Part shown: positions 15,250-50,157 of the stretch, piece by piece
Position numbering within the stretch: the first letter of the stretch is position 1
Layout of the letters: every line of letters begins with the position of its first letter
Source: Patescibacteria group bacterium
GTDB taxonomy: Bacteria; Patescibacteriota; Patescibacteriia; Magasanikbacterales; UBA922
Direction of reading: 5' to 3'
Assembly: GCA_028687045.1 (NCBI GenBank)
Contig: JAQUAW010000001.1
Span: 2,034 to 66,033, forward strand
Length of the DNA: 64,000 nt
Position numbers and translations under genes: made by a program
Notes under the pieces: generated by a model
Databases searched by the model: none
Told to the model about the DNA's origin: nothing
Seen by the model: only the letters and a program-made list of their open reading frames with translations

Positions 15250-15258
15250 ATGGGCAAT

Positions 15259-15302: not shown

Positions 15303-15370
15303 TATAAATGTTTTTAAAATAATTGACGTTAATTGATTCTAAAAAATGTTTTTGAATAAATAAAAGTTAT

Positions 15371-16506: not shown

Positions 16507-16584
16507 TTAAAATTTTTAGAAAATACTTATGTTAATTGATTTTGAAAAACATGCAATTGAAATAGGTATTTTTATTATCACGTT

Positions 16585-16624
16585 TTGACAAATTTCTCCG
16601 CCAAATCGGCGGATCAATTTGTCA
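16585..16624. promoter_or_regulatory. Split palindrome TTGACAAATT–(22-bp GC hairpin)–AATTTGTCA
   Basis: The same half-sites recur at 33788..33809 and 50728..50752. Confidence 0.45.
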
Positions 16625-16628
16625 TTCC

Positions 16629-17048: not shown

Positions 17049-17056
17049 AAATAAAA

Positions 17057-35160: not shown

Positions 35161-35187
35161 ATAGTTTATAAATCTTTATTATATTTA

Positions 35188-35658
35188 TTAATGAATTCCG
35201 AGTACACGAGCGATAGCTTTTTTGATATCAGTACGATTGATATAGCCAACCAATTTTTCTTCAGCATCGACTACTGGAATTTGACGAATCTTGAATTCAG
35301 AAAGCATAGTAGCAGCTTCCATCAAAGTATGACTTTCTTTGATAGTGTGAACCTCTTTGGTCATAAATTTGGTAATAGGTTCATCAGCAACTTCTTTGAT
35401 TCTAACACTAAATTCTTCAGCCGCCTCAAAAGAAGCTAAATGTTTGTCTTCTTCCAAATAATCTGGAACTACATATTGAATCAAATCCATACTAGACAAA
35501 ATCCCTTTTACATATTTTTCATCGTCAACGACAACCACTCCATTGGTACGACCGTCAACCATTTTTTGCAATGCTTCTCTAAAAGTAGCATTAATATTTA
35601 CTGTTGTCACAACATCTTGCATGTTGTTTTTGACAAGATATTTTTCTTGTTCTGTCAT
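35188..35658 (-). CDS. Tandem CBS-domain protein
   Basis: 156 aa with two CBS-like motifs (GVVVVDDEKYVKGILS; IPVVDAEEKLVGYINRTD). Sits directly upstream of the permease. Confidence 0.7.
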   Translation of the reverse strand: MTEQEKYLVKNNMQDVVTTVNINATFREALQKMVDGRTNGVVVVDDEKYVKGILSSMDLIQYVVPDYLEEDKHLASFEAAEEFSVRIKEVADEPITKFMTKEVHTIKESHTLMEAATMLSEFKIRQIPVVDAEEKLVGYINRTDIKKAIARVLGIH

Positions 35659-35840: not shown

Positions 35841-37436
35841 TTATAAATCGTTTCCTGTATATGACATATTGAAACTTTTATTAATCAAAGGAAAATCTGG
35901 CACAATATTGTTCAAACCAGCCTCACCCAAAGCTGACCAGTTGACAAAGGAAGGATCTCTTGGAAATACTCTACTAATATTGCCTTGTGCGTCTGTAGCT
36001 ACGAAATAAGATATCTCTCCACGCCAACCTTCCACCATACTTACAGCATAAGCACTTTTTTGCAAAATAAGGCTAGTAATATTGGCTACAATAATCTCTC
36101 CCTCAGGTATTTTTTGCAAAGATTCTTGTACTATTTCCAATGATTTACGAATTTCTTTTAAACGAATCTGAAATCTAGCGTTGACATCACCCTCTTCTTC
36201 TACAGGTATTTGCCCCATAGAAACTTCGGCGTAAGCAGCATAAGGGTGATCAACACGTGTATCATGTTTTACACCTACAGCTCTACCAGCGACACCCAGA
36301 GTACCTTGGTTATTAGCTACTTCTAGAGAAATGATGCCTGTACCTTTTAGACGATTCAAAAGTGATGCACTATCTTCAGCGATAGCAATCACTTCTTCAA
36401 AATCTTTAGCAATTTTTATCAGTTCTTTACTTAGATAATCTTGTTCACTTTTGTTTAAATCTTTTTTTACACCACCAATAGTATTTACACTACGCAAAAA
36501 TCTACTTTTTGTTAATTTTTCATTTATTTGCATCATCATTTCACGCAAACGTGATCCATTGGCTCCACCAAAACTGAAACCAGTATCCATCATAATAGCT
36601 CCAATATCACCAAAATGATTAGCTAGTCTTTCAAGTTCAGCAAAAATGGTTCTCAAATACAAAGCACGTTTTGGCACTTCAATTCCAGCTAATTTTTCTA
36701 TAGTTTGACAAAAAGCTAAAGAATGACTAAAAGAACTATCACCAGAAATTTTTTCTGACAAACGTATCTTATTTTCCAAAGACAAAACTTCAAATAATTT
36801 TTCACTACCTTTGTGTACATATCCCAAACGTGGTTCAAGTTGCACAATACTTTCTCCAGCCATACTAAAACGAAAATGACCAGGTTCGATAATACCAGCA
36901 TGAATTGGTCCAACAGGAATTTCATAAATCCCCTCACCTTTTACTTCTTGAAATTCATATTTACCGGTTACTTCTTTCAATTTGGTTTTCCATTCAAAAT
37001 CTTTTCTAAGAGGAAAAACATTACTTGGATAATTTTCATGCAAAATAAGCGGTCTATTGTCTGGAATATCTGTAGCTACTAAACCAAAAAAAGTCTGAAT
37101 TCTTCTTTCGTAGTTTAATATTTCAGGTACAAGGTTAGCCAATGAAGGAAAATCAGTAGTATTTTTCAATTCAATAAAAGGACAGATAAAAAAATTATCA
37201 CCAGGTACAGCAAATAAATACCAAATTTTGAAAGCTCCTTTTTCTTTTCTTTCGTCTGTAGCGGTGACTAGCTTAAGTGAAAGTTTTTTTTGATTATGTA
37301 ACTCTCCTACAATTTCAGCTATTTGTGTAGAAGATACTTCGAAGATAGCCAAGTTATCGTGATACTCTACGTTAGCATTCTTTGGAAGGTATGATTGTAT
37401 TTTTTCTTTTATCATATTAGTATTGCAAAACAGCAT
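35841..37436 (-). CDS. Fused NuoC-like/NuoD-like subunit, homologous to the group-4 [NiFe]-hydrogenase large subunit but lacking the Ni-binding cysteines (Ehr large subunit-like)
   Basis: VGPIHAGIIEPGHFRF and LGYVHKGSEK are NuoD/HycE-like. The L1 position reads KISGDSSFSH where hydrogenases have RxCGxCxxxH. The C-terminus has no CxxC. Confidence 0.7.
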   Translation of the reverse strand: MLFCNTNMIKEKIQSYLPKNANVEYHDNLAIFEVSSTQIAEIVGELHNQKKLSLKLVTATDERKEKGAFKIWYLFAVPGDNFFICPFIELKNTTDFPSLANLVPEILNYERRIQTFFGLVATDIPDNRPLILHENYPSNVFPLRKDFEWKTKLKEVTGKYEFQEVKGEGIYEIPVGPIHAGIIEPGHFRFSMAGESIVQLEPRLGYVHKGSEKLFEVLSLENKIRLSEKISGDSSFSHSLAFCQTIEKLAGIEVPKRALYLRTIFAELERLANHFGDIGAIMMDTGFSFGGANGSRLREMMMQINEKLTKSRFLRSVNTIGGVKKDLNKSEQDYLSKELIKIAKDFEEVIAIAEDSASLLNRLKGTGIISLEVANNQGTLGVAGRAVGVKHDTRVDHPYAAYAEVSMGQIPVEEEGDVNARFQIRLKEIRKSLEIVQESLQKIPEGEIIVANITSLILQKSAYAVSMVEGWRGEISYFVATDAQGNISRVFPRDPSFVNWSALGEAGLNNIVPDFPLINKSFNMSYTGNDL

Positions 37437-38862
37437 TATTAATTAAAGTCTGCAAAAATGGTGGCAAATAGACACTCAAAATAACTATAATAGTAACAAA
37501 TAAAATTTGTGGAATAAACAACCAAATATTATTTTCACCTTTTTCAATATTGTCTGGTTTTTCTCCAAAAAACATAGCTGTAAAATGTTTCAAAAAACTT
37601 ACAAAAACTAAAGCGAGAAAAAACAGAGCAATCAAACTAACGACAGGATACTCTTTCATACCAGCTGACAAAATGTAAAGTTTGGTCATAAACATTCCAA
37701 ATGGTGGCACACCTGTCACAATCAGAAAACCAATAAGGGAAAGTACACCCGTCACAGGCAAGACTTTCAAAGCTCCTTTGACATTGAAAATTTTGGCAGA
37801 ACTATATTTCAATAACAAATTTCCTGTAGATAAAAAGAGTACGACTCTGACACAAGAATGATAAACAATATGAAGTATTGCTGCAAAAATACCTAATCCT
37901 CCAAAACCAAAACCAAGTGCCATTACACCGGCATTTTCAATACTAGAATAAGCAAGCAATCTTTTGTAATTTTTGGCATTGAACATAATCAAAGCTGAGA
38001 CAACAATAGACAATAGACCAAAAACAATCAATAGTGTTTGACTAAACAAAGGTCCAACGGCAATGTCTACAATAACCTTGTATCTAAGCATAATCACAAA
38101 AGCAATTGGCAACAAAGCGCCGGATAACAAAGCGCCTATAGGTGCTGGTGCTTTGCTATAAGCATCTGGTTTCCAAGTGTGCATTGGTACAAAACCAATC
38201 TTAGTACCATAACCAATAAGTACAAAAACAAAAGCAATTTTAGCAAGCAAGGGGTCAAGATGAATAGCATTACTAGTCAATGTTTGCCAGTCCACCAAAC
38301 CAACACTAGACAAATCAATAGAGGTAAAAAATAATAATGTTCCAAAAAATCCCAAAAGTAAACCAACAGAATTGATAATCAAATATTTCCAAGCTCCTTC
38401 AATCGCTGATGGTTTATTGTAAAAACTTATCAAAAAGGCAGTAGACAGTGTGGTAGCTTCAATAGAAATCCAAGCAAAAATAGGATTGCTAGAGGTAATT
38501 GCCAAAAACATCGCTACAAAAAACATATTCAACAAAACAAAATATTGTTTTACACGTGTAAAACCAATAATACTTTTTTGCATTTCTTGACGTAAATATT
38601 GTACAGAATAAATAGTAGTAGCAAAACCAACAAAACCAAGAACCAAGACAATAATAGCACCCAAAGAATCAATTGAAAAAAATCTTCCAGAACCTGGTGT
38701 ATAAATTCCCAATGAAGACACTTTTAGAGCTACTACAATAGACAACACCAAAGAAATTAATGAAGAAACTACTGATACAACTTCAATAACTACTTTTCTT
38801 TTAGAAAGAAGATTTATTATCGCTGCAATAAACAAAGTTATTATTATAAAAAAAATTTCCAT
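37417..38862 (-). CDS. NuoN/NuoM/MrpD-like antiporter-type membrane subunit
   Basis: 481 aa, about 14 TM helices, with family-typical motifs. Confidence 0.7.
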   Translation of the reverse strand: MEIFFIIITLFIAAIINLLSKRKVVIEVVSVVSSLISLVLSIVVALKVSSLGIYTPGSGRFFSIDSLGAIIVLVLGFVGFATTIYSVQYLRQEMQKSIIGFTRVKQYFVLLNMFFVAMFLAITSSNPIFAWISIEATTLSTAFLISFYNKPSAIEGAWKYLIINSVGLLLGFFGTLLFFTSIDLSSVGLVDWQTLTSNAIHLDPLLAKIAFVFVLIGYGTKIGFVPMHTWKPDAYSKAPAPIGALLSGALLPIAFVIMLRYKVIVDIAVGPLFSQTLLIVFGLLSIVVSALIMFNAKNYKRLLAYSSIENAGVMALGFGFGGLGIFAAILHIVYHSCVRVVLFLSTGNLLLKYSSAKIFNVKGALKVLPVTGVLSLIGFLIVTGVPPFGMFMTKLYILSAGMKEYPVVSLIALFFLALVFVSFLKHFTAMFFGEKPDNIEKGENNIWLFIPQILFVTIIVILSVYLPPFLQTLINNAVLQY

Positions 38863-38866
38863 ATTT

Positions 38867-39514
38867 TTAATCTTTTAATTTTTTCATTGAAGAAACATTC
38901 AATGTTCCAAAATGTTTATACAACATTGAAATAAAAATTGAGGCAATCATAATCCAAATAAAAATATTAAAAATAATTCCTAATTGAAGAGAAGCCGACT
39001 GCTCTAACTCAGCAAAAACAGCAAACATCACGATACTATTTTCAAAAGACAAAATACCAATAATTTGTGACAAAGCCCCTTTACGATTGACTATCAAAAA
39101 CAAAGAAAGAAACATCGATGACAAAGCAAGAGATAACAGCATTTGATGATCTGACACAATACTAGTCAAAGGAACAAACTTTTGTGAATGAGCTATAAAA
39201 ATTAAAACAGCAATAACAATTAAAGTAATTGGTGTATTTAGATAAGTACTAACAGAAAAAGACAAAGCATATTTTTTGATCAGACTAATAAAAAACTTTG
39301 GTGCTACAATAACTTTGACAATCAACATCACAAGTATAACTAATAACATCCACAAATCTTTGGTCTCAAAAAAAGAATTTAATAATATAATAACAACTAC
39401 TAATGATTGCAAGGCATAAGTATACACAGCTGAAACGTTTTTCTTCATTATAAGCAAAAAGACAACAGATAATAGAACTATCTCAGATAAAAATTGTAAA
39501 GTTAATAGATTCAT
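38867..39514 (-). CDS. Small polytopic membrane subunit of the same module, possibly NuoJ/K- or MbhD/HyfE-like
   Basis: 215 aa and hydrophobic. Embedded between the NuoH-like and NuoN-like genes. Confidence 0.4.
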   Translation of the reverse strand: MNLLTLQFLSEIVLLSVVFLLIMKKNVSAVYTYALQSLVVVIILLNSFFETKDLWMLLVILVMLIVKVIVAPKFFISLIKKYALSFSVSTYLNTPITLIVIAVLIFIAHSQKFVPLTSIVSDHQMLLSLALSSMFLSLFLIVNRKGALSQIIGILSFENSIVMFAVFAELEQSASLQLGIIFNIFIWIMIASIFISMLYKHFGTLNVSSMKKLKD

Positions 39515-39547: not shown

Positions 39548-40483
39548 TTATTTAATTGAATAAATAAGTCCAATTGCCACAACATTGAAAATAAAAGAAA
39601 TAAATAATAAATCTGGCAATCGAAAAAATCTAAATTTAGCAATAGTTGATTCTAGCACAGCAATAGCACCACAAAATAAAAATATTTTTATTAAAAAATA
39701 AAAAATACTCAAAGATATCGAAGCCAACCCAACATCAGTACCAAAACCAAATGGAAAAAATAAGTTAGCGCCAAGTACCATAAAAATAAGTAATTTGTTG
39801 GCAGCAGCCCATTCCATCAGTGCCAAACGTTTACCAGAAAATTCCAAAATCATAGCTTCATGCACCATAGTCAATTCCAAATGAGTAGCTGGATTATCAA
39901 AAGGAAATCTGGCAGTCTCAGCCAATAAAACAATGAAAAATCCACCAAAAGCAAGTAATACTGGCAAAAAGTATTGACCACCAATTGATTGACTAAAACT
40001 TGCGATATCAAACAAATTACTAGAACCAGCTATCAAAGCCATGGTTAAAAGTGAAAAAATGAAGCCTCCTTCAGCTAAAGCTGAAATAGTCATTTCACGA
40101 CTTGAACCAAAACCACCAAAAGCACTACCTGTATCAACACCAGCCAAAGCCATAAAAAAAGTACCAATAGCTAAAGTATAAACAACAAATAAAATATCAC
40201 TAGTAACAAAACCTGCAATGCGTGGAAAAAAGATAGGTATACTAAAGCCAACTACCAAAGTTACTGCAAAAACAATATAAGGAGTAAATCGAAAAACCCA
40301 AGAAGCGTCATTACTTATTACTTCATCTTTGTGTAAAAGTTTCCAGATATCTCTGTAAGGTTGAAAAATATTAGCACCTTGACGATTTTGTAACTTAGCT
40401 TTTATTTTTCTAATAATACCAATACACAAAGGTGACAAAGCTGGTACAAAAAATAATTGGATTATCCAAATAAATATTGACAT
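39548..40483 (-). CDS. NuoH/HycD/EchB-like membrane subunit
   Basis: 311 aa; the RIAGFVTSD…GFGSSREMTISALAEGG region matches the NuoH/HyfC fold pattern. Confidence 0.7.
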   Translation of the reverse strand: MSIFIWIIQLFFVPALSPLCIGIIRKIKAKLQNRQGANIFQPYRDIWKLLHKDEVISNDASWVFRFTPYIVFAVTLVVGFSIPIFFPRIAGFVTSDILFVVYTLAIGTFFMALAGVDTGSAFGGFGSSREMTISALAEGGFIFSLLTMALIAGSSNLFDIASFSQSIGGQYFLPVLLAFGGFFIVLLAETARFPFDNPATHLELTMVHEAMILEFSGKRLALMEWAAANKLLIFMVLGANLFFPFGFGTDVGLASISLSIFYFLIKIFLFCGAIAVLESTIAKFRFFRLPDLLFISFIFNVVAIGLIYSIK

Positions 40484-40487: not shown

Positions 40488-42539
40488 TTATAATATTACG
40501 AGTAGAGCTAGCATAAGAGCTACAAAAATATAAGTGATATAAAGATCGATATTACCATTCTGTATAGTCTTAGCTTTTACAGATAACTTATTGATTACTA
40601 TATGTATAGGTTGATAAAAGTAAGTATTGTATATATTACTAATACTCAAAGTTATTGTTCTTGATTTTGGTAAATATCTATTTTGATCATCATAATACTC
40701 AATATTATTTTGAATAGTTGGTTTGAGCAAACCTTTGAAAATCAATATTATTGATCGTGAGAATCCTGTAGCTGTTATTTCAGCACGTGGAGTAAGATCT
40801 GTACCACAATCCCAAGTATTGGTCTTACATTCTTTTTGTGTTTTGTTAATTACTTTTTTGAAAACGAAAATTACCAAAAAAGTAGCAACCACAAGTAAAA
40901 GAAAAATAAACATACCAGAGATTGAAGAAAATCCATCAGAAACAGTCATACTCTGGTTAGAAGAAATATTTACAGCAGAAGCTGAATTTTTGAAGATACT
41001 CAAACTTTGACTTACGGTATTGATAAGACTAATTACATATCCAGAAAATACACCAAACAAAAGTGTTAATAATGCTAAAGCGCCCATACCTAAACGCATA
41101 GAAAAAGGAGATTCTTTGGCATGTTTCACTTCCTCACTACGTGGACGAGCCAAAAAAGTAGCAGCAAAAGCTTTGACAAAACAAGCAAGTGCTAATCCCC
41201 CAGTAAATACCAATGATCCTGCTGCCAAAATAAAGATCCATTGTGTTACAAACTGCATTTGATTTATTCCTTGAAACAAAGCTTGATAAGTCAACCATTC
41301 ACTAAAAAAACCATTAAACGGTGGCAAAGCAGAAATAGCAATTGAACCAATAAGAAAGAAGAAAGCTGTTTGTGGCATGTACTTTATTAGACCACCATAT
41401 TCTTCCATATTACGAGTATGTACTTGGCTTATTACCGAGCCTGCACTTAAGAAGAGTAAAGCCTTGAAAATAGCATGATTAAGTGTGTGAAATAATGCTG
41501 CACCAAGGCCAAGCAAAGCCAAAGCTGGTAAATTTAGAGAATAAAAAGTCAAAGCACTGCCCAAACCAAGCAAAATAATACCAATGTTTTCTATACTATG
41601 ATAAGCAAGCAATCTCTTGATATCATGTTCAGTCAAAGCATATAAAACTCCGAGTAGAGATGAGATTGAACCAACCACCAAGATTACTAATCCCCACCAG
41701 TATGGTGCTGGAGAAAGAATATCCAAAAACAATCTTACCATCATATAGATACCAGTCTTGATCATAACACCTGAGAGTATTGCTGAAACATAAGAAGGAG
41801 CAGCTGGATGAGCGGCTGGTAACCAAATATGCAATGGGATAATACCAGCTTTCAAGCCAAAACCAATAAAAGCAGAAACAAAAATAATATTTTTTATAAA
41901 TGCAGGAACAAGAGCTATATTTTCTTTTATCACTAGAAAATCAAAAGAACCAATATACTTAAACAAAAGTAAAAAAGCTAAAATAATAAAGGCTGTACCA
42001 ATATAAGTCATCACCAAATACAAAAAACCTGCCTTTACATTATCTTGATCATTTTTTTCATAAACAATCAAGAAATATGAAGTAACTGCCATTATTTCCC
42101 AAAAAATAAGGAAAAAAAGAGCATTAGAAGAAGTTACTACTAAAATAACACTGGCAATAAAAATGTTATAGAAAAATCCAAGAGCGCCAATATTATATTT
42201 TTTGTAATAATGTTTTATATAACCTACACCATAGATAGAACAGAATAAGACTATCAAAGAAACTACAAAAACAAAAAAACTAGACAACAAGTCGATATGA
42301 AAAGACAATGTAAAAAGTGAAAAAACAGATGTTTTCAGATCAAACAACAAACTACTTTTTGTCAAAATTGCTGTAATAGAAAAAATCAAACCCCATAAAG
42401 AACCAGCGATAGCAAAAAAACTACCCCAGCCATTTGCATATTTATCATTTTTGAGGAAAAACAAAGATCCAATGCCTCCAACAAAAAATAAGGAAAGTAA
42501 AATAAAAAAGCTAATTGGTGAGGTAATGATTTCTAACAT
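40488..42539 (-). CDS. NuoL/MrpA/HyfB-like large antiporter subunit
   Basis: 683 aa, about 16-18 TM helices, with the conserved WLPAAHPAAPSYVSAI-type motif. Confidence 0.75.
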   Translation of the reverse strand: MLEIITSPISFFILLSLFFVGGIGSLFFLKNDKYANGWGSFFAIAGSLWGLIFSITAILTKSSLLFDLKTSVFSLFTLSFHIDLLSSFFVFVVSLIVLFCSIYGVGYIKHYYKKYNIGALGFFYNIFIASVILVVTSSNALFFLIFWEIMAVTSYFLIVYEKNDQDNVKAGFLYLVMTYIGTAFIILAFLLLFKYIGSFDFLVIKENIALVPAFIKNIIFVSAFIGFGLKAGIIPLHIWLPAAHPAAPSYVSAILSGVMIKTGIYMMVRLFLDILSPAPYWWGLVILVVGSISSLLGVLYALTEHDIKRLLAYHSIENIGIILLGLGSALTFYSLNLPALALLGLGAALFHTLNHAIFKALLFLSAGSVISQVHTRNMEEYGGLIKYMPQTAFFFLIGSIAISALPPFNGFFSEWLTYQALFQGINQMQFVTQWIFILAAGSLVFTGGLALACFVKAFAATFLARPRSEEVKHAKESPFSMRLGMGALALLTLLFGVFSGYVISLINTVSQSLSIFKNSASAVNISSNQSMTVSDGFSSISGMFIFLLLVVATFLVIFVFKKVINKTQKECKTNTWDCGTDLTPRAEITATGFSRSIILIFKGLLKPTIQNNIEYYDDQNRYLPKSRTITLSISNIYNTYFYQPIHIVINKLSVKAKTIQNGNIDLYITYIFVALMLALLVIL

Positions 42540-42540: not shown

Positions 42541-43083
42541 TTATTTTTTTTGTGAAGGTTTATTTTCTATTGTTTCAAGAATCTTGAGTAATGATTGAAG
42601 AATAAAAGTAGGTGTAGGAGGATCACCCAGAATTTGATAATCTACAGGTATCACTGAATCTACACCATTTAACACAGCATAAGAATCTTTGAATATTCCA
42701 CCATCAATAGCATCATCCCCTATTGCTACCACAATTTTTGGGTTAGGTGTGCCATCATAGGCATCTTTGAGAGCCTTGGCCATATTTTTCGCTACAGGAC
42801 CAGTCACAAGCAACATGTCAGCGTGTCTTGGTGAAGCCACAAAATGAATACCAAAACGTTCAACATCATAGAAACTGTTAGACAAAGCTACCAATTCTTG
42901 TTCACAAGAGTTGTCTGATCCAGCATCAATTTGTCTGATAGCCAAAGAACCCCTAAATAATTTTTTTACTTTATCTTGTATTTTTTCTCCAATTTCAAAA
43001 AAATCCTTTTGATTAAGATCATCTTTTGAAATAGAAATTATATTTTTTGGTGTTTTGAATATTTTTACAAAAAGTTTCAACAT
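42541..43083 (-). CDS. NuoB/hydrogenase small-subunit homolog with 3 of the 4 Fe-S ligand cysteines replaced
   Basis: Aligns to NuoB: GCCAVEMM becomes NSCEQELV, MGSCANGGG becomes IGDDAIDGG, and PGCPP becomes LGDPP. Confidence 0.7.
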   Translation of the reverse strand: MLKLFVKIFKTPKNIISISKDDLNQKDFFEIGEKIQDKVKKLFRGSLAIRQIDAGSDNSCEQELVALSNSFYDVERFGIHFVASPRHADMLLVTGPVAKNMAKALKDAYDGTPNPKIVVAIGDDAIDGGIFKDSYAVLNGVDSVIPVDYQILGDPPTPTFILQSLLKILETIENKPSQKK

Positions 43084-43267
43084 ATAGACCTTAAAATAAT
43101 ATTTTATTATACTTTACAAAAAATCACTAAAATATAAATATACCTATGATTGGCAAATTTATAACAGGACATATTTTCTCACTAAATAAACTAATTGTCA
43201 ACCCAATAAATTTATATTATACACATGAAAAAATCAAAAAACCACTTTTGAAAAGTGGTTTTACCTT

Positions 43268-43696
43268 TTATCTTAATTTTCTGTATTTGTTGGCAACCCT
43301 GATTCTGTTCATTTCTTTATCAATAAGTGCTTGCAGTCTAGCATAATCAACATCTTCAATATTTTTGACTTTTTCCATTTCTTCTTCAGCTCTCTTATGA
43401 GCTTCTTCAGCTCTAGCAAGATCAATATTATCAGCTCTTTCAGCACTATCAGCCAAGATGACTAATTCACTATTTGCTCTCACTTCCAAAAAACCACCAG
43501 AGATAGCATAAGGATGTTCACCATCTTTATCTTTGATTCTCATTTCTCCAGCTTGAAGAACAGAAACCATAGGAATATGGCTTGGCAATACGGTAATTTC
43601 ACCAGAAGTTGTTGGAATACTTACTTGAAAAACATCATTTTCGTAAACTTTTTTTTCTGGTGTGATTATTGTAAATTTTAAAGTTTGTGTTGACAT
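43268..43696 (-). CDS. atpC: F1 ATP synthase epsilon subunit
   Basis: 142 aa with a beta sandwich and a helical hairpin. Last gene of the atp operon. Confidence 0.8.
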   Translation of the reverse strand: MSTQTLKFTIITPEKKVYENDVFQVSIPTTSGEITVLPSHIPMVSVLQAGEMRIKDKDGEHPYAISGGFLEVRANSELVILADSAERADNIDLARAEEAHKRAEEEMEKVKNIEDVDYARLQALIDKEMNRIRVANKYRKLR

Positions 43697-43706
43697 AGAT
43701 ACAAAT

Positions 43707-43778
43707 TTTATCTCAATATATCTCTATTTTATCTCTATCTTATTATAAGGAGATAAATGGAGATAATGTAGAGATATG
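43707..43778. repeat. GAGATAA/TTATCTC motif cluster between atpD and atpC
   Basis: TTTATCTCAATATATCTCTATTTTATCTCTATCTTATTATAAGGAGATAAATGGAGATAATGTAGAGATATGG. Confidence 0.55.
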
Positions 43779-43785
43779 GTTTTAT

Positions 43786-45174
<1,389 letters not shown>

Positions 45175-45204
45175 TTAATTAATTGATTTGTTTTAAAATA
45201 TTTA

Positions 45205-46170
45205 TTAATTTAACGCTGCAGCACCACCAGCAATTTCCGCAATTTCTTGAGTAATAGCAGCTTGTCTAGTCTTGTTATAAGTAAGATTCAATTCTTTGAT
45301 CATATCATTTGCTGAGTCACCGGCATTTTTCATAGCCAACATGCGAGCACTGTGTTCACTAGCAGAACTTTCAAGTAGAGATTGATATATTTGCATTTCT
45401 ACAAGTCTAGGTAAAATTGTTTTCAAAACTTCAGCTTTACCTGGTTCAAATAAATATTCGTTCAATTGTTCTTGCTTTCCTTTATTCAAAGTTCTTTCTT
45501 TCAAATCTTCATCACGACCAAGCTCAGTAATCATTTTTTCCAAATCAAATTCTGAAATTGGTAACACTTGACGAATCTTAGCTTCTTGAGCCACAGCTGA
45601 ACGATAATCTGTATAAGATACTACAACTTTATCATATTTTTTTTCTATATAATTTCCAATTATCATTTGAGAAGCTACCATTACATCTTCAAGTACTGGT
45701 TTATCTGAAATACTATTGAAAGAAGCAATCAAGTTGTAACCGTGTTTTTTACAAAAATCAGCACCTTTTTTACCAATACCAATCACATCTACTTCCACAC
45801 TTTCACTAGACTGGGTATGTTTATTACGAGCACGTTGAAAACTAATATTTTTTGGATCTTTTAGTTGAGCTGCAGTTTTTTTGATAATATTGGAATTGAA
45901 ACTTCCACACAAACCACGATTGGAAGTAATCAAAATTAATAATATTCTTTTTACTTGTCTTATCTCAAGCAAAGGCATTGATTCCTTTTCAGTCTTTGAC
46001 AAATTTATCAACAAATCCCACGCAGTAGTAGCGTATTCTCTAGTATCCAAAGCAGCCTGCACAGCTTTGCGCATTTTGGCAGCCGAAACCATTTCCATCG
46101 CCTTAGTAATTTTTTTGGTGTTGGAAACTGATTTGATTCTAGTTTTTATTGCTTTAGCACTTACAGCCAT
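45205..46170 (-). CDS. atpG: F1 ATP synthase gamma subunit
   Basis: 321 aa with conserved termini (MAVSAKAIKTRIKSVSNTKKITKAMEMVSAAKMRKA …AITQEIAEIAGGAAAL). Confidence 0.85.
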   Translation of the reverse strand: MAVSAKAIKTRIKSVSNTKKITKAMEMVSAAKMRKAVQAALDTREYATTAWDLLINLSKTEKESMPLLEIRQVKRILLILITSNRGLCGSFNSNIIKKTAAQLKDPKNISFQRARNKHTQSSESVEVDVIGIGKKGADFCKKHGYNLIASFNSISDKPVLEDVMVASQMIIGNYIEKKYDKVVVSYTDYRSAVAQEAKIRQVLPISEFDLEKMITELGRDEDLKERTLNKGKQEQLNEYLFEPGKAEVLKTILPRLVEMQIYQSLLESSASEHSARMLAMKNAGDSANDMIKELNLTYNKTRQAAITQEIAEIAGGAAALN

Positions 46171-46241
46171 ATTATTAAATAAAAAGTTTAAAGTTTAAAG
46201 TATCTGTGTTAATCCGCGTTGTTATCTAATTATTCTGCGTA

Positions 46242-47729
46242 TTATTTCTTAAATTCTTCACAAACACCTTTCAAATCCGCAATGATACTATCATCCCATT
46301 CACCTTTAGAGATTTTTTCTAACAATGATTGGTGACTACCTCTAACAAAATCCAAAAATTTTTCTTCTGTTTTCAAAATATCAGTAACAACAACATCATC
46401 GAAATAACCATTATCTACTGCAAAAATAGAAGCAACTTGATCTTCAACATGCATCGGACTATATTGAGGTTGTTTCATAAGTTCTACTACTCTAGCACCT
46501 CTATCCAATTGTTTCTTTGTTTCGACATCTAGATCACTAGCAAATTGAGCAAAAGCTTCAAGTTCACGATATTGAGCAAGAGCAAGCTTAATTTTACCAG
46601 AAACTTTTTTCATTGGTTTAGTTTGAGCAGCACCACCTACACGAGAAACAGAGATACCGACGTTGACAGCTGGACGAATACCCTTGAAAAACAAATCTGT
46701 TTCCAAGAAAATTTGTCCATCAGTAATAGAAATTACGTTGGTTGGAATATAAGCAGTCACGTCAGAAGCTTGTGTTTCAATAATAGGAAGAGCGGTAATA
46801 GATCCACCACCATGTTCTTTGTTCAAGTTACAAGCACGTTCCAAAAGACGGGAATGAAGATAAAAAACATCTCCAGGATAAGCCTCACGTCCTGGTGGGC
46901 GTCTCAAAAGCAAAGAAATTTCACGATAAGCCCAAGCTTGTTTTGTCAAATCATCATAAACGATTAAGACATCTTCACCTTTATCAGCGAAGTATTCAGC
47001 CATAGTTACACCAGCATACGGAGCAATAAAAGACATCGCAGCAGGATCAGATGCACCAGCTACCACTACAGTTGTGTATTCCATAGCACCATTTTCTTCA
47101 AGTTTAGCTACGATACGAGCTACTTTTGACTCTTTTTGTCCAATAGCTACATAAATACATTTCATGTTTTGACCTTTTTGGTTGATGATAGCATCAATTG
47201 CAATAGCTGTTTTACCAGTTTGACGATCACCAATGATAAGCTCACGTTGTCCACGTCCAATTGGAATCATAGCGTCAATAGCTTTGATACCAGTCTGTAC
47301 AGGAACACCAACAGGTTGACGACTCATCACACCAGGAGCTGTTTTTTCGATAGGATAAAATTCTTTTGTAACAATATCACCTTTACCATCAATAGCTTGT
47401 CCAAGAGCGTTTACCACACGACCAATCACTTTTTCACCAACTGGTACTGACAAAATTCTACCAGTTCTCTTGACAGTATCACCTTCTTTGATTTTTTCAT
47501 ATTCACCCAAAATCATAGCACCTACAGTTTCTTCTTCCAAATTCAAAGCTACACCCATAATACCGCCTGGGAATTCAAGCATCTCTTGAGATTGACAACT
47601 TGTCAGACCACTCATACGAGCAATACCGTCCCCTACTTCAATAACAGTACCGACTTCTTCTACTTCTACTGTTTTTTGAAAAGCAGAAATATGTTTTTTT
47701 AGTTCTTCGATTACTTGATTTGTAGACAT
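46242..47729 (-). CDS. atpA: F1 ATP synthase alpha subunit
   Basis: [11 protein letters not shown] Walker A; 495 aa. Confidence 0.95.
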
Positions 47730-47744
47730 ATATTTTTTACTAAT

Positions 47745-47775
47745 CTTGAGCGGAGCGAAAGATCTGTAGACCCTG
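47745..47775 (+). repeat. Y-type repeat upstream of the atpA start
   Basis: CTTGAGCGGAGCGAAAGATCTGTAGACCCTG. Confidence 0.6.
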
Positions 47776-47804
47776 CGAACGCTTCTTTTAATTTAAATGT
47801 TTTT

Positions 47805-48191
47805 TTAAATAGTTAAACTTTTTTTTAAATTTGTCAATTGTGTTTTCACACTAGCATCCAATATTTTATCTTCTATTTTCACTCTAATACCACCTATCAA
47901 ATTTTTATCAATCTTTTCTTGAACAAAAACTTCTTTACCAAAAGATTCTTTAATTTTTTTGATAATTTCACTATCCAAATCTCTTGCAGAAGTTACTTCC
48001 AATTCAACTATTCCTTGTTTCTTCTTAAGAATAGTTTCAAATTCAGCTATAATATTATTGGTTTGTTTTATTTTGTGTTTTTTAGCTAGTAGACCCACAA
48101 AATTTTTCAAAACAATATCTAAATCACTAGCATTCAAACCAATAGTCAATTCGTAAAGAGCTTCAGCAAATTGTTTATTAGAAATTTTCAT
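47805..48191 (-). CDS. atpH: F1 ATP synthase delta (OSCP) subunit, short form
   Basis: C-terminal IGGIRVKIEDKILDASV is typical of delta. It sits between atpF and atpA. Confidence 0.65.
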   Translation of the reverse strand: MKISNKQFAEALYELTIGLNASDLDIVLKNFVGLLAKKHKIKQTNNIIAEFETILKKKQGIVELEVTSARDLDSEIIKKIKESFGKEVFVQEKIDKNLIGGIRVKIEDKILDASVKTQLTNLKKSLTI

Positions 48192-48200
48192 ATATTTACG

Positions 48201-48243
48201 TCATTCCGACCCGCCGAATCGGCGGGGAGGGATATTTCTTAAA
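48201..48243 (+). repeat. X-type repeat upstream of the atpH start
   Basis: TCATTCCGACCCGCCGAATCGGCGGGGAGGGATATTTCTTAAA, with the perfect inner stem CCCGCCGA/TCGGCGGG. Confidence 0.65.
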
Positions 48244-48308
48244 TCTAAATTATTTTAATTTACAAAACTTTCAAATGATTCTAAAATACTTTTTCAATTA
48301 ATTTATTA

Positions 48309-48869
48309 TTATTTTTTTAGACTAGCTAAACTATCTTCAATTATTTTTTTGTCAATTTTACCATCCATTTTTTCATTCAAGATTTTTTCTAAAGCAGTTA
48401 CAATAAGTGTAGCTGATTCCTGTCTAATCTCTTCCATCATTTGTACTTTTTCTGTTTGAATACTTTTTTTAGCTTGATCCACAATCACTTCGACTTCACT
48501 TTTAGCTTTTACTTTCATATCCTCACCAAGTTGTTTAGCTTCAGTATGTGCTTTTTCAATTACTTTATTAGCTTCAGCTTTGGCTTCTTTCAATTTGTCT
48601 TGATATTCTTTTTCACTAAGAGCTAAATTAGTTTCAATTTCTTTAGCATTATCAATACTATCATCAATCATTTTTTTACGTTCAGCCAATGTTTTAGTCA
48701 AAGGTTTCAAAATCAAAAACCATAAGATTATAGCAACAACAGTAAAGTTAATAAGTTGAAAAACAAAAAGTTGAGCATTTAAACCCAAAGATGCTGGTAA
48801 ACTTTGTTCAGCAACGCCTGTTTCCTCATGTGTATTTAATGTTTCTTCTGTCATAATAATATTAAACAA
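48309..48869 (-). CDS. atpF: Fo ATP synthase b subunit
   Basis: Single N-terminal TM followed by a long charged helix. Confidence 0.7.
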   Translation of the reverse strand: MFNIIMTEETLNTHEETGVAEQSLPASLGLNAQLFVFQLINFTVVAIILWFLILKPLTKTLAERKKMIDDSIDNAKEIETNLALSEKEYQDKLKEAKAEANKVIEKAHTEAKQLGEDMKVKAKSEVEVIVDQAKKSIQTEKVQMMEEIRQESATLIVTALEKILNEKMDGKIDKKIIEDSLASLKK

Positions 48870-48979
48870 GTAAATAATTATTTGTGTTTATTTGTGTAAC
48901 ATTTGTATTATTTTCAAACAAATAAACCAATGAAACCAAGTTTACCAGTTTTTAGCTAGTAAACTTAGTCTACAACGAT

Positions 48980-49267
<288 letters not shown>

Positions 49268-49338
49268 TTATAAATTAAGTGACCTTTCGATCTTAGTCCC
49301 CTTGAAAATTTCAAGAAGATTGAAGATTGAAATGTCTT

Positions 49339-50157
49339 TTAGTGATGTGCTTCTTCTTCATCTCCATGTGGAACAGAAGTGGCTACCGTCATATATACCA
49401 AAGTAAGCATCGCAAATACCGTAGCTTGAATCACACCTACCAATATCTCAAGTAACATGAAAGGTGTTGGAACAAAAGCCGCAACTAAAGCCGAAATCAC
49501 AGAAATCAAGATTTCTCCAGCAAAAATATTACCAAAAAGACGTAGAGAAAGAGATACAACTTTTGCAACCTCAGAAACTATTTCGATAAGACCCACACCA
49601 AATTCAATGATAGCTGCAAAAACAGCAATGAACCCTTCGCCAATACCATTTTTGAATTTTTTAAAACTTTTGAAAACATTTTTTATTTGTACAAACTTAC
49701 CCAAATGTGTAAAAACACCAATAGTAGCAAAAGCATAGAGATGCGAACCAATCACAGAAACAAGTGCCATAGCGAGAGTAAGATTCAAATCAGTGTTGGC
49801 AGGACGAAGCAACATATTGTGTCCAACAGTAATACTTCCTGTACCTGGTAAAAGTCCAAGCCAATTTGATAACAAAATAAAAAAGAAGATAGCACCAACT
49901 ATTGGCAAAAATCTAATAGTCTTTTTTCTATCTCCTGTAACTTGATCAAAATAACCAAGTAGCGTGTCTAAGAAAAATTCACTAGCATTTTGTAATTTTC
50001 CTGGTTTCAAACTTATACTTCTTTTTATAAAAATTCCTAAAATCAAAAAAATGACAATCGCAAGCCAAGCATTTACCATAGTATTGGTAATATTTAGATT
50101 ACCAATGTGAAATACTGCTTCTGGAGCAAGTGTAGGAATGTGAATTTCTGCGCTCAT
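49339..50157 (-). CDS. atpB: Fo ATP synthase a subunit
   Basis: 272 aa with a conserved Arg in the LSLRLFGNIFAGE motif. Confidence 0.85.
   Translation of the reverse strand: MSAEIHIPTLAPEAVFHIGNLNITNTMVNAWLAIVIFLILGIFIKRSISLKPGKLQNASEFFLDTLLGYFDQVTGDRKKTIRFLPIVGAIFFFILLSNWLGLLPGTGSITVGHNMLLRPANTDLNLTLAMALVSVIGSHLYAFATIGVFTHLGKFVQIKNVFKSFKKFKNGIGEGFIAVFAAIIEFGVGLIEIVSEVAKVVSLSLRLFGNIFAGEILISVISALVAAFVPTPFMLLEILVGVIQATVFAMLTLVYMTVATSVPHGDEEEAHH

What the first reader, a model, noticed from the sequence alone, without database searches (positions are those of the whole stretch)
42541..43083. NuoB/hydrogenase small-subunit homolog with Cys-to-Asp and Cys-to-Ser substitutions at three of the four [4Fe-4S] ligand positions
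The residue-level alignment is visible in the sequence: CCxxE becomes SCEQE, GxCxxGG becomes GDDAIDGG, and GCPP becomes GDPP. The surrounding fold-defining segments are preserved: RFGIHFVASPRHADMLLVTG, PNPKIVVAIG and VIPVDYQILG. So the protein is a folded NuoB-like subunit that cannot hold cluster N2. Conservative Asp replacements hint at retained structure, and perhaps metal or ion binding, rather than decay.
Basis: seen in the sequence. Interest (0 to 1): 0.75.

Follow-up and report, generated by a model that had tools for sequence, protein, structure and literature searches.

The report
Iron-sulfur-free hydrogenase-like membrane complex subunit
This gene encodes the small subunit of a complex-I/hydrogenase-like membrane machine whose iron-sulfur cluster ligands are replaced by aspartates; the whole six-protein complex has no visible redox cofactor site, yet it is strongly conserved in ultrasmall (CPR) bacteria and often sits next to the ATP synthase genes.

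Summary
ORF 43083..42541 (minus strand, 180 aa) is a PF01058 NuoB/HycG-type small subunit with one Cys. Against its nearest relatives (CxxC-type hydrogenase and Ehr small subunits) the four [4Fe-4S] ligand positions read D57, C60, D124, D154.

It is not decay. dN/dS is 0.09-0.12. D57 is invariant in 72 orthologous loci. The AF2 model has pLDDT 92 and superposes on MbhJ at 2.0 Å. It is the most conserved of the six subunits.

It opens a fixed operon, S-HyfB-HyfC-HyfE-HyfF-NuoCD. The large subunit has lost all four NiFe cysteines, and no ferredoxin-type subunit is present. The window's complex has 11 scattered Cys in 2,401 residues, so no redox cofactor site is visible. The antiporter Lys/Glu residues and the NuoH-like carboxylates are invariant.

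The nearest relatives found (Nitrospirota-type, NiFe-less like Ehr) keep all four Cys. The only recurrent neighbour is the F1Fo ATP synthase.

Best reading: a redox-dead Ehr variant working as a gradient-linked ion translocator, with a charge-preserving acidic pocket where the cluster was. The CPR Ehr clade was known from its large subunit (Jaffe 2020). I found no description of the cofactor-free state or the ATP synthase linkage. New variant of a known kind.

The parts
42541..43083 (-). Small subunit (NuoB/HycG/HyfI-like, 'EhrS-like'), 180 aa, Cys-less cluster site
   Evidence: PF01058 E=7e-24. PDB alignments to HycG and MbhJ. AF2 pLDDT 91.7. Foldseek match to MbhJ at TM 0.88. dN/dS 0.09-0.12.
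42913..42915 (-). Codon GAC = D57, at the position of [4Fe-4S] ligand 1 of CxxC-type small subunits
   Evidence: Aligned to Cys in HycG and MbhJ and in Cys-intact relatives. Asp in 72/72 orthologous loci. Codon checked.
42904..42906 (-). Codon TGT = C60, the only retained ligand Cys and the only Cys in the protein
   Evidence: Cys in 63/72 loci, otherwise A/V/I/T. It is therefore dispensable.
42712..42714 (-). Codon GAT = D124, at ligand 3 (GxCxxGG becomes GDDAIDGG)
   Evidence: Aligned to Cys in HycG, MbhJ and PSST. D in most loci, G in 5, E in 1.
42622..42624 (-). Codon GAT = D154, at ligand 4 (GCPP becomes GDPP)
   Evidence: D or N in all orthologues: 80 GDPP and 40 GNPP among 120 homologues.
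40488..42539 (-). HyfB/NuoL-like antiporter-type membrane subunit, 683 aa; start codon 1 nt after the small-subunit stop
   Evidence: PF00361 E=2e-56. NCBIfam hydrogenase 4 subunit B, 649 bits. HycC 7z0s_C E=2e-82. E148, K230, K261, H355, K359 and E414 are invariant.
39548..40483 (-). HyfC/NuoH-like membrane subunit, 311 aa
   Evidence: PF00146 E=8e-46. Invariant carboxylates E130, E138, E189, D196, E203, E209, E214, E224, E278.
38867..39514 (-). HyfE-like membrane subunit, 215 aa
   Evidence: NCBIfam NF008556 'hydrogenase 4 membrane subunit', E=3.5e-15, below its cut-off. E158 invariant.
37417..38862 (-). HyfF/NuoN-like antiporter-type membrane subunit, 481 aa
   Evidence: PF00361 E=4e-39. 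NCBIfam hydrogenase 4 subunit F. E135 and K221 invariant. Position 339 is K in 54/54 other loci and R here. Position 394 is K in 43 loci and E in 11.
35841..37436 (-). Fused NuoC-NuoD / HycE-like large subunit, 531 aa, without NiFe ligands; overlaps the upstream gene by 20 nt
   Evidence: PF00329 and PF00346. HycE 7z0s_E E=5e-67. RVCGICGFAH aligns to KISGDSSFSH and DPCYSC to NMSYTG. These motifs are conserved across loci.
43268..50157 (-). F1Fo ATP synthase operon (a, c, b, delta, alpha, gamma, beta, epsilon), directly upstream on the same strand
   Evidence: ORFs. Pfam labels come from the syntenic locus L001. The same arrangement is seen in 15 of 71 orthologous loci, and in 12 of the 45 with at least 7 kb of upstream sequence.
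43238..43262 (-). Terminator-like hairpin with a T-run just after atpC
   Evidence: It suggests the ATP synthase and Ehr-like genes are adjacent but separate transcription units.
43173..43201 (-). Promoter-like site (TTGACA-17-TGnGAAAAT) upstream of the small-subunit gene
   Evidence: This is a consensus match only. Promoter-like hits in the region are not above shuffled expectation (77 found against 66 ± 8).

Best explanation
The ORF encodes the small (NuoB/HycG/HyfI-type) subunit of a six-subunit Hyf-like 'energy-converting hydrogenase-related' (Ehr) complex: small subunit, HyfB-like, HyfC/NuoH-like, HyfE-like, HyfF-like, and a fused NuoCD-like large subunit.

Shown. In this clade the [4Fe-4S] site of the small subunit has been rebuilt with carboxylates at D57, D124 and D154 (D or N). 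The large subunit has lost all four NiFe cysteines. No ferredoxin-type (HycF/NuoI) subunit is encoded. The complex has no Cys motif able to bind any Fe-S or NiFe centre. All six genes are under purifying selection. The small subunit keeps the NuoB fold and is the most conserved subunit. The proton/ion-translocation residues of the two antiporter-like subunits and the carboxylate chain of the NuoH-like subunit are invariant. The only recurrent neighbour is the H+-type F1Fo ATP synthase.

Inferred. The complex is redox-inactive and works as a gradient-driven, Mrp-like ion or proton translocating or regulating device. In fermentative CPR cells it would operate together with the ATP synthase: ATP hydrolysis builds a proton-motive force that the complex uses or converts, or the reverse.

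Also inferred. The small subunit is kept because it caps and positions the peripheral module on the NuoH-like subunit. Its three Asp keep roughly the net negative charge of a [4Fe-4S](Cys)4 centre (-2/-3) in the old cluster pocket. That would preserve salt bridges to basic residues of the large subunit, such as the conserved K/R229 of the ex-L1 motif. Alternatively the pocket forms a protonatable or cation-binding site at the entrance of the ion path.
For: - Ligand mapping: PDB alignments and Cys-intact relatives.
- Conservation of the Cys-less state: 120/120 homologues. Of 72 orthologous loci, 53 read DCDD and 8 DCDN, with D57 at 72/72.
- Selection: dN/dS is 0.09-0.12 for S and 0.09-0.18 for the other five subunits, at dS 0.43-1.0. 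S is the most conserved subunit in 33/46 loci.
- Fold: pLDDT 91.7; MbhJ TM 0.88, rmsd 2.0 Å.
- Large subunit: the NiFe Cys positions read S, S, S, G, and the replacing motifs are conserved.
- No CxxCxxCxxxC ORF in the 64-kb window or inside any of about 70 operons.
- 11 scattered Cys in 2,401 residues.
- Invariant antiporter Lys/Glu/His and NuoH-like carboxylates.
- Gene order S-B-C-E-F-G is fixed in the CPR-clade loci that hold the whole operon, 46 of them with all six genes near full length.
- ATP synthase is the only recurrent neighbour: 12/45 loci with enough upstream flank, drawn from several CPR phyla. The c-subunits lack the Na+ signature (the motif itself is from my own knowledge).
- Only D57, Q62, A108 and I168 distinguish the clade from Cys-bearing relatives, so the interfaces are unchanged.
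- Each Cys (TGT) to Asp (GAT) change needs two nucleotide changes.
- Independent Cys-less lineages also carry D/E/N/S/G at these positions. This argues that acidic or polar replacement was selected.
Against: - No biochemical data exist for any Ehr complex.
- The complex lacks MrpE/F/G-type subunits, which belong to true Mrp antiporters, so Na+/H+ antiport is not directly supported.
- A peripheral arm under strong constraint is not obviously needed for simple antiport. Large-subunit motifs such as KISGDSSFSH are near-invariant and shared with the Cys-bearing nearest relatives. This hints at a function of the arm that I cannot name.
- ATP synthase adjacency holds in only about a quarter to a third of loci. 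In this window a terminator-like hairpin separates the two units.
- The charge-mimic or salt-bridge idea could not be tested, because no coordinates or complex model were available.
- D124 is Gly in 5 loci and D154 is Asn in about 13% of loci, so no single fixed metal-site geometry is conserved.
Confidence: 0.55

Rival explanations
1. The acidic pocket (D57, D123, D124, D127, D154, E61, E63) is a true cation site for Mg2+, Ca2+, Na+, K+ or Mn2+/Fe2+. The small subunit would then act as an ion sensor or gate, or as the cytoplasmic ion-loading site of the transporter, rather than as a structural filler.
For: There are three new carboxylates plus pre-existing D123, D127, E61 and E63 within the three ligand loops. 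D/N alternation at positions 154 and 127 is typical of hard-cation sites. D57 and D123 are invariant or nearly so. S is the most constrained subunit.
Against: Ligand positions vary: G at 124 in 5 loci, and A/V/I/T at 60. Other Cys-less lineages use quite different sets such as SAEGD, DAAAD and SAAES. No structure or metal analysis is available.
Confidence: 0.22
2. The peripheral arm is a non-redox catalytic or binding module. The conserved Ser/Asp/His pocket that replaced the NiFe site would carry out or sense a chemical step coupled to the membrane arm. The analogy is DabA/DabB or cyanobacterial CupA-NDH-1, where antiporter-like subunits energise CO2 hydration (own knowledge).
For: The large subunit is under purifying selection (ω 0.11-0.22). 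Its polar motifs are near-invariant: S231, D233, S525, Y526 and D530 at 97% or more. These motifs are shared with the Cys-bearing nearest relatives. The arm is retained although no redox site is visible in it.
Against: There is no recognisable catalytic domain or metal motif, and Pfam reports only Complex1_30kDa and Complex1_49kDa. No conserved partner or substrate-related neighbour was found. The idea is purely analogical.
Confidence: 0.13
3. The complex is still redox-active. It would use a non-Cys-ligated cluster or metal at the Asp/Cys site, or a cofactor-bearing partner encoded elsewhere, such as a ferredoxin or the FDH module proposed for other Ehr complexes.
For: Single Asp ligands to [4Fe-4S] clusters are known, for example P. 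furiosus ferredoxin and the DPOR NB-cluster (own knowledge). Ehr complexes in Margulisbacteria and Saganbacteria were hypothesised to pair with FDH/NuoEF-like modules (PMC6349859).
Against: I know of no precedent for a 1-Cys/3-Asp [4Fe-4S] site. The lone Cys is A/V/I/T in 9/72 loci. There is no ferredoxin motif in the operon or window, no conserved redox neighbour, and no Cys motif in any subunit. Without a relay cluster, electrons from an external partner could not reach the buried pocket (inference).
Confidence: 0.06
4. The gene is a decaying relic or pseudogene of a former hydrogenase or complex I operon.
For: All cofactor ligands are lost. One near-identical MAG (L004) has a 1-nt deletion in a T7 run inside the HyfB-like gene.
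Against: All six ORFs are intact in the window. dN/dS is about 0.1. Identity across many CPR phyla is 58-75%, with fixed gene order. Antiporter residues are invariant. The operon was acquired horizontally and kept in an actinobacterial chromosome (L056). The L004 indel lies in a homopolymer and looks like an assembly error.
Confidence: 0.02

Closest known systems
Ehr (energy-converting / Ech-hydrogenase-related) complexes (Coppi 2005; Marreiros et al. 2013); the CPR-specific Ehr clade noted by Jaffe et al. 2020 (PMC7304191)
   Same: The subunit repertoire is like a group-4 hydrogenase: NuoL-, NuoH-, HyfE- and NuoN-like membrane subunits plus large and small subunits. The large subunit lacks the NiFe cysteines. 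Jaffe et al. reported a monophyletic CPR Ehr clade lacking those cysteines and concluded that it cannot interact with H2.
   Different: Jaffe et al. examined only the large-subunit L1/L2 motifs. Here the small subunit has also lost its [4Fe-4S] ligands and no ferredoxin subunit exists, so the complex has no redox centre at all. The nearest Cys-intact relatives found (Nitrospirota, Thermodesulfovibrionales, Methylomagnum; 52-57% identity) are likewise NiFe-less but keep CxxC...C...C. Their gene order is B-C-E-F-G-S rather than S-B-C-E-F-G. Published Ehr hypotheses assume redox-driven ion pumping. I could not check whether Coppi 2005 or Marreiros 2013 mention Cys-less EhrS, because neither paper is held.
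E. coli hydrogenase-4 / formate hydrogenlyase small subunits HyfI and HycG (PDB 7z0s_G) and P. furiosus MbhJ (6cfw_J)
   Same: These are the best solved-structure matches (E about 1e-28, 37-41% identity; model TM 0.88 and rmsd 2.0 Å to MbhJ). The membrane partners match HyfB, C, E and F.
   Different: HycG and MbhJ bind a proximal [4Fe-4S] cluster through CxxC...C...C. They work with a NiFe large subunit and a 2x[4Fe-4S] subunit (HycF or MbhN). All of these features are absent here.
Complex I subunit NuoB / PSST / Nqo6 (cluster N2)
   Same: Same Pfam family (PF01058) and fold (Foldseek E about 1e-14; Aquifex NuoB TM 0.89). It takes the same position next to NuoD- and NuoH-like subunits.
   Different: There is no tandem-Cys N2 site, no NuoE/F/G/I module and no NuoA/J. 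The large subunit lacks the quinone-site Tyr: Y87 of Nqo4 aligns to Gly (read by eye from the alignment).
Mrp-type multisubunit cation/proton antiporters
   Same: Both lack redox cofactors. Both use NuoL/M/N-like (PF00361) subunits with the conserved TM5 Glu and TM7/TM8/TM12 Lys/Glu set. This is the proposed functional analogue.
   Different: No MrpB/E/F/G homologues were recognised. The complex carries a NuoH-like subunit and a full two-subunit (NuoB + NuoCD) peripheral arm, which Mrp lacks.
DAB (DabA/DabB) and cyanobacterial NDH-1 CupA/B CO2-uptake modules (own knowledge)
   Same: They are a precedent for complex-I-type antiporter subunits being coupled to non-redox chemistry.
   Different: They use different soluble partners (carbonic-anhydrase-like, Zn-binding). 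Nothing homologous to those partners is found here.

Membership tests
NuoB / Oxidored_q6 superfamily (PF01058) | Significant match to the PF01058 domain and a flavodoxin-like NuoB fold | tested here: met
   Pfam E=7e-24, 84 bits against a 27-bit cut-off. AF2 pLDDT 91.7. Foldseek hits to PSST, MbhJ and NuoB.
Complex I NuoB (cluster N2 subunit) | Four Cys ligands (CCxxE ... GxCxxGG ... GCPP) binding [4Fe-4S] N2 | tested here: not met
   The sequence reads S59-C60, D124 and D154. NCBIfam NuoB equivalog models score far below their cut-offs, for example 101 against 283 bits.
Complex I NuoB (cluster N2 subunit) | Encoded with nuoA-N, including the NADH/Fe-S module NuoE/F/G/I | tested here: not met
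   The operon has only six genes. There is no ferredoxin-type ORF in the 64-kb window.
Group 4 [NiFe]-hydrogenase small subunit (HycG/HyfI/EchC/MbhJ) | CxxC...C...C ligands of the proximal [4Fe-4S] cluster | tested here: not met
   D57, C60, D124 and D154 align to the four Cys of HycG and MbhJ.
Group 4 [NiFe]-hydrogenase small subunit (HycG/HyfI/EchC/MbhJ) | Partner large subunit with L1 (RxCGxCxxxH) and L2 (DPCxxC) NiFe motifs | tested here: not met
   The motifs read KISGDSSFSH and NMSYTG.
Group 4 [NiFe]-hydrogenase small subunit (HycG/HyfI/EchC/MbhJ) | 2x[4Fe-4S] electron-relay subunit (HycF/HyfH/MbhN/EchF) in the complex | tested here: not met
   No CxxCxxCxxxC ORF in the operon or window, nor inside the operons of about 70 orthologous loci.
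Group 4 [NiFe]-hydrogenase small subunit (HycG/HyfI/EchC/MbhJ) | Hyp maturation genes in the genome | tested here: inconclusive
   None were found among the Pfam-annotated ORFs of the 64-kb window. The rest of the genome was not examined.
Ehr (hydrogenase-related) complexes | Homologues of group-4 hydrogenase membrane and soluble subunits encoded together | tested here: met
   S, HyfB-, HyfC-, HyfE-, HyfF- and NuoCD-like genes are contiguous. The order is conserved.
Ehr (hydrogenase-related) complexes | Large subunit lacks the NiFe-binding cysteines | tested here: met
   This matches the description in PMC7304191 and PMC6349859.
Ehr (hydrogenase-related) complexes | Small subunit EhrS retains a [4Fe-4S] cluster, which published models of redox-driven pumping assume; whether this defines the family is unclear | tested here: not met
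   The nearest Cys-intact relatives found read CCCC, while this clade reads D-C-D-D/N. The type Geobacter EhrS could not be examined.
Mrp cation/proton antiporter | MrpA/D-type PF00361 subunits with conserved Glu/Lys transport residues | tested here: met
   Two PF00361 subunits. E148, K230, K261, K359 and E414 in one and E135 and K221 in the other are invariant; position 394 of the second is K in 43 loci and E in 11.
Mrp cation/proton antiporter | Full MrpA-G set, including MrpB/E/F/G, and no peripheral arm | tested here: not met
   Only four membrane subunits, none matching MrpE/F/G models. A NuoB + NuoCD arm is present.

The most novel reading that the evidence does not exclude
A complete complex-I/hydrogenase-type machine, with peripheral arm, NuoH-like coupling subunit and two antiporter modules, has been kept for a very long time with no redox centre. 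Its arm, including the carboxylate cluster that replaced the [4Fe-4S] site, would act as a protonation- or cation-driven switch (a 'pseudo-N2') or as a non-redox catalytic site. That switch would gate or drive ion translocation together with a reversed ATP synthase. This would be the missing PMF-handling partner of the ATP synthase in respiration-less CPR bacteria. It would also be a natural experiment separating complex-I conformational coupling from electron transfer.
Probability: 0.15. Interest if true: 0.88.

Novelty: new variant of a known kind. Interest (0 to 1): 0.6.

Why it matters
Three reasons.

1. [quoted passage not shown] What builds or uses their proton gradient is an acknowledged open question (PMC11665869). 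A conserved, cofactor-free, antiporter-bearing complex that repeatedly sits beside the ATP synthase operon is a concrete candidate partner.

2. For complex-I mechanism and evolution, this machine keeps the peripheral arm, the NuoH-like carboxylate chain and the antiporter residues, yet has no electron-transfer centre. That allows a test of which parts of the coupling apparatus work without redox chemistry. It also shows that Ehr complexes should not be assumed to be redox pumps in metabolic reconstructions. These genes are routinely annotated as 'NADH-quinone oxidoreductase subunit B' or 'Ni,Fe-hydrogenase III small subunit'.

3. The operon also lies in a low-GC island of a cultured actinobacterium, Cryobacterium sp. 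Y50. That offers a tractable system for experiments.

Tried and rejected
- Rfam and tRNA scans of the window found nothing, so they gave no taxonomic anchor. Taxonomy came from protein hits instead: Candidatus Magasanikbacteria, 99% identity.
- The first AF2 run, with a shallow 16-sequence alignment, gave pLDDT 57. The ligand loops scored lowest. This was an alignment-depth artefact; the 124-sequence alignment gave 91.7.
- A Biopython neighbour-joining tree timed out. I replaced it with average-linkage clustering on identity distances, leaving out the ligand columns. That is crude, so "several independent Cys losses" is suggested, not proven.
- Literature searches for 'EhrS/EhrL' and 'Ehr' were swamped by electronic-health-record papers. 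Marreiros et al. 2013 is not held. Searches for 'NuoB-like/NuoD-like' and for 'hydrogenase-related' + 'Patescibacteria' returned nothing. Absence of prior description is therefore only as good as this library.
- I looked for a conserved electron-input partner or any recurrent neighbour by clustering flank ORFs from 71 loci. Only ATP synthase genes recur.
- I looked for partners of the Cys-intact relatives (L076, L078). Only unrelated genes turned up: HTH, PhnA, YkuD, a histidine kinase.
- Pseudogene hypothesis: rejected.
- Na+-coupled ATP synthase: not supported by the c-subunit motifs.
- The downstream CBS-domain and CitMHS transporter genes are conserved only in the closest Magasanikbacteria (L004-L006). 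I did not treat them as part of the system.
Full report
**1. Observation**

The window has an ATG-initiated ORF on the minus strand, 43083..42541 (180 aa plus stop). The plus-strand frame is full of stops.

The protein matches Pfam PF01058 (Oxidored_q6) at E=7e-24. It matches the solved small subunits HycG (7z0s_G, E=2e-28) and MbhJ (6cfw_J, E=4e-28), followed by about 40 complex-I PSST/NuoB chains.

- Against HycG (vDCGGCNGCEIE), against MbhJ (SGSCNGCDIE) and against the closest Cys-bearing relatives (DAGSCNGCELE), ligand 1 of the CxxC pair aligns to D57 and ligand 2 to C60.
- Only on the complex-I tandem-CC template does ligand 1 fall on S59.
- Ligand 3 is D124 (GxC becomes GDD). D123 was already Asp in Cys-bearing relatives, which read GDCxDGG.
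- Ligand 4 is D154 (GCPP becomes GDPP).

So three Cys became Asp and one Cys was kept. Each TGT-to-GAT change needs two nucleotide substitutions.

**2. What it belongs to**

The gene opens a tightly packed six-gene unit on the minus strand, with 1- to 33-nt gaps and one 20-nt overlap:
- small subunit;
- a 683-aa HyfB/NuoL-like subunit (PF00361; NCBIfam 'hydrogenase 4 subunit B', 649 bits);
- a 311-aa HyfC/NuoH-like subunit (PF00146);
- a 215-aa HyfE-like membrane protein;
- a 481-aa HyfF/NuoN-like subunit;
- a 531-aa fused NuoC-NuoD/HycE-like large subunit.

In the large subunit the HycE NiFe motifs RVCGICGFAH and DPCYSC align to KISGDSSFSH and NMSYTG, so all four Ni-Fe cysteines are gone.

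No ORF with a CxxCxxCxxxC ferredoxin motif exists in the 64-kb window or inside any related operon. The six proteins together hold 11 Cys in 2,401 residues, never in a cluster motif. The small subunit has only C60, and the large subunit has only one conserved Cys, C243. The complex therefore has no visible site for any Fe-S or NiFe centre.

Directly upstream on the same strand lies the complete F1Fo ATP synthase operon (50157..43268). A terminator-like hairpin (43262-43238) and a promoter-like site (43201-43173) separate it from the small-subunit gene. The two are adjacent but probably transcribed separately.

The rest of the window is housekeeping: aminoacyl-tRNA synthetases, Mur/FemAB/PBP2/MreBCD, NUDIX proteins. 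Operon GC equals window GC, 0.318.

**3. Relatives**

The best database hit (99% identity) is from a Candidatus Magasanikbacteria MAG (CPR/Patescibacteria). The top 120 clusters (68-99% identity) carry labels such as Magasanik-, Staskawicz-, Nomura- and Moranbacteria and Paceibacterota. All of them keep SDN[AS]CEQE, GDDAxxGG and G[DN]PP.

A scan of one genome per GTDB species found 235 loci, and 80 were fetched.
- The loci at 58% identity or more that hold the whole operon, 46 of them with all six genes near full length, show the order S-B-C-E-F-G.
- Across the 72 small-subunit copies of this clade (71 fetched loci plus the window; three fetched loci repeat the L008 genome), the four ligand positions read DCDD in 53 and DCDN in 8. 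The rest are DCGD (5), DADD (4), DVDD (2), and DIDD, DADN, DTDD and DCEN (1 each).
- D57 never varies. The lone Cys is replaceable by small or hydrophobic residues.

A separate clade at 52-57% identity (Nitrospirota, Thermodesulfovibrionales, Methylomagnum) keeps all four Cys (DAGSCNGCELE, GDCGCxGG, GCPP). Its gene order is B-C-E-F-G-S, and its large subunit also lacks NiFe Cys (RVSGDTTVAH / NQSYSGHDL). This matches the published description of an Ehr complex.

In an exhaustive search of 1.84 billion cluster representatives, about 115 of the best 150 hits have CxxC...C...C. Scattered Cys-less variants also appear (SAEGD, DAAAD, NGEGD, DAADN, SAAES, ESCED, DAVDD, DSDDS and others), some from Chloroflexota and Dehalococcoidia. 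In a crude clustering that leaves out the ligand columns, these variants sit among different Cys-bearing groups. That suggests several independent losses, repeatedly with D/E/N/S/G replacements.

**4. Selection and structure**

Pairwise dN/dS against four Magasanikbacteria orthologues:

| Genes | dN/dS | dS |
|---|---|---|
| Small subunit | 0.09-0.12 | 0.43-0.83 |
| Other five subunits | 0.09-0.18 | 0.50-1.00 |
| atpD / atpA (for comparison) | 0.03-0.06 | 0.39-0.56 |

The ranges use the three least saturated comparisons; the fourth orthologue (L008) is at dS 1.3-2.1.

Across 46 more distant loci the small subunit is the most conserved of the six proteins in 33 cases. Its median identity is 68.5%, against 56-66% for the others. 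Only four positions (D57, Q62, A108, I168) are fixed in the clade and rare in Cys-bearing relatives, so the rest of the protein and its interfaces look unchanged.

AF2 with a 124-sequence alignment gives pLDDT 91.7 and pTM 0.81. Foldseek places the model on MbhJ (TM 0.88, rmsd 2.0 Å), on Aquifex NuoB (TM 0.89, 1.8 Å) and on PSST chains.

The membrane arm looks functional. TM5 Glu, TM7 Lys, TM8 Lys, the HxxFK motif and TM12 Glu/Lys are invariant in both antiporter-like subunits, and they align to the same positions in HycC and MbhH. The NuoH-like subunit keeps nine invariant carboxylates.

**5. Context**

I clustered all flank ORFs from 71 loci. Only ATP synthase genes recur (atpC and atpD in 19 loci). 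Among the 45 loci with at least 7 kb of upstream sequence, 12 have atpD upstream on the same strand and 3 more have it nearby in another orientation. These loci come from several CPR lineages: Magasanik-, Falkow- and Uhrbacteria, 'Saccharibacteria'-labelled MAGs, and others. By my rough estimate, random placement in a ~1-Mb genome would give well under one such case in 45.

The adjacent c-subunits have Ala after the ion-binding Glu/Asp, so they lack the Na+ signature (the motif is from my own knowledge).

The operon also occurs outside CPR. In the isolate Cryobacterium sp. Y50 it lies in a GC 0.49-0.56 island between GC 0.61-0.67 flanks. MAGs labelled Syntrophus, Negativicutes, Endomicrobiales and Ignavibacteria also carry it, although MAG labels are less certain.

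**6. Mechanism**

*Shown.* The small subunit cannot bind a Cys4 cluster. The complex has no visible redox cofactor site. It is under strong purifying selection. It keeps the ion-translocation residues. It is physically linked to ATP synthase genes in many lineages.

*Inferred.* The complex is a redox-independent ion or proton translocating or regulating device. It would be functionally analogous to Mrp antiporters or to the antiporter modules of MBH, and it would work with the ATP synthase in fermentative cells.

*Inferred.* The three Asp keep about the -2/-3 charge of the former [4Fe-4S](Cys)4 centre. They would either salt-bridge to conserved basic residues, such as K/R229 of the large-subunit ex-L1 motif, or form a protonatable or cation site at the head of the NuoH-like carboxylate chain. 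Two points argue that Asp was selected rather than reached by drift: each replacement needs two nucleotide steps, and acidic or polar residues recur in independently Cys-less lineages.

*Unexplained.* The peripheral arm, including the near-invariant Ser/Asp/His motifs at the ex-NiFe site, is very strongly constrained. Those motifs are shared with the Cys-bearing nearest relatives. The arm probably does something specific that I cannot name.

**7. Comparison with what is known**

The system is a member of the Ehr group of hydrogenase-related complexes by subunit content and by its NiFe-less large subunit. Jaffe et al. 2020 reported a monophyletic CPR Ehr clade lacking the large-subunit cysteines and inferred that it has no H2 chemistry. 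Their supplement covers only the L1/L2 motifs of the large subunit.

Published Ehr models assume that redox reactions drive ion translocation (PMC6349859). In the searchable literature I found no mention of three things: that the CPR-type small subunit has lost its cluster ligands, that no Fe-S subunit remains, or that the operon is linked to ATP synthase genes. Coppi 2005 and Marreiros 2013 could not be read, so some prior mention of Cys-less EhrS cannot be excluded.

The protein fails the defining cofactor features of complex-I NuoB and of group-4 hydrogenase small subunits. It is not an Mrp member, since there are no MrpE/F/G subunits and a peripheral arm is present, although it may work like one.

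**8. Verdict**

It is best described as a new, fully cofactor-free variant of a known kind (Ehr).

Interest is moderate to high. It bears on the open question of how respiration-less CPR bacteria use their ATP synthase (PMC11665869), and on which parts of complex-I-type coupling need redox chemistry. A cultured carrier, Cryobacterium sp. Y50, makes it testable. The functional assignment remains inference.

Noticed in passing
L056 (Cryobacterium sp. Y50, NZ_PJJM01000102.1), locus coordinates about 10001-17200: The complete Cys-less S-B-C-E-F-G operon (small subunit 63% identical, ligand state DTDD) sits in a GC 0.49-0.56 island between GC 0.61-0.67 flanks of a cultured actinobacterium. This looks like horizontal acquisition and offers a possible experimental host.
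   Followed up: partly
L004:11770-11780 (JBAYVA010000001.1; small subunit 99% identical to the window): A 1-nt deletion in a T7 run (T7 to T6) inside the HyfB-like gene, at the GFFSEW TM12 motif, breaks the frame in this MAG. The window copy is intact. It is probably a homopolymer assembly error. L041 and L074 show similar split HSPs in the same gene.
   Followed up: partly
L076 (Nitrospirota MAG), locus 1-10501: Two tandem copies of a Cys-intact Ehr-type operon (…F-G-S then B-C-E-F-G-S). The two small-subunit paralogues read DAGSCNACEWE and DAGSCNGCELE.
   Followed up: no
L018:17238-18677 and L030:7471-8859: In Kaiserbacteria and Moranbacteria loci a second HyfF-like antiporter gene (about 60% identical to the window's) follows the large-subunit gene. 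Some CPR versions therefore have three antiporter-like subunits.
   Followed up: no
window 33886-35658 (-): A CBS-domain protein (156 aa) and a CitMHS/ArsB-type ion transporter (424 aa) lie directly downstream of the operon. A strong promoter-like site sits at 35752-35724. The pair is conserved only in the closest Magasanikbacteria (L004-L006).
   Followed up: partly
window 36723-36752 and 35847-35864 (-); large subunit residues 229-238 and 523-531: The motifs that replaced the NiFe-binding L1 and L2 motifs (K-I-S-G-D-S-S-F-S-H and N-x-S-Y-S/T-G-N-D-L) are near-invariant across CPR loci. They are also shared with the Cys-intact nearest relatives (RVSGDTTVAH / NQSYSGHDL). This points to a conserved but unknown function of the ex-NiFe pocket.
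   Followed up: partly
window 12603-16465 (-): Three NUDIX-domain proteins lie close together (159 aa, 160 aa, and a 353-aa Ham1/ITPase-NUDIX fusion), interleaved with a seryl-tRNA synthetase gene.
   Followed up: no
window 6968-8988 (-): Two tandem FemAB-family paralogues sit next to a DegT-type aminotransferase and a Mur ligase. This suggests peptidoglycan cross-bridge synthesis in a CPR genome.
   Followed up: no
window 1-64000: No tRNA gene and no Rfam family at gathering threshold in 64 kb. GC is 0.32 throughout.
   Followed up: yes
P0124, P0166, P0121, P0142, P0232 and other cluster representatives: Other group-4-like small subunits have independently different Cys-less ligand sets (DAAD, SAES, SEGD, DADN, DCDN), some from Chloroflexota or Dehalococcoidia. 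Loss of the proximal cluster seems to recur in this superfamily. Their operon contexts were not examined.
   Followed up: partly
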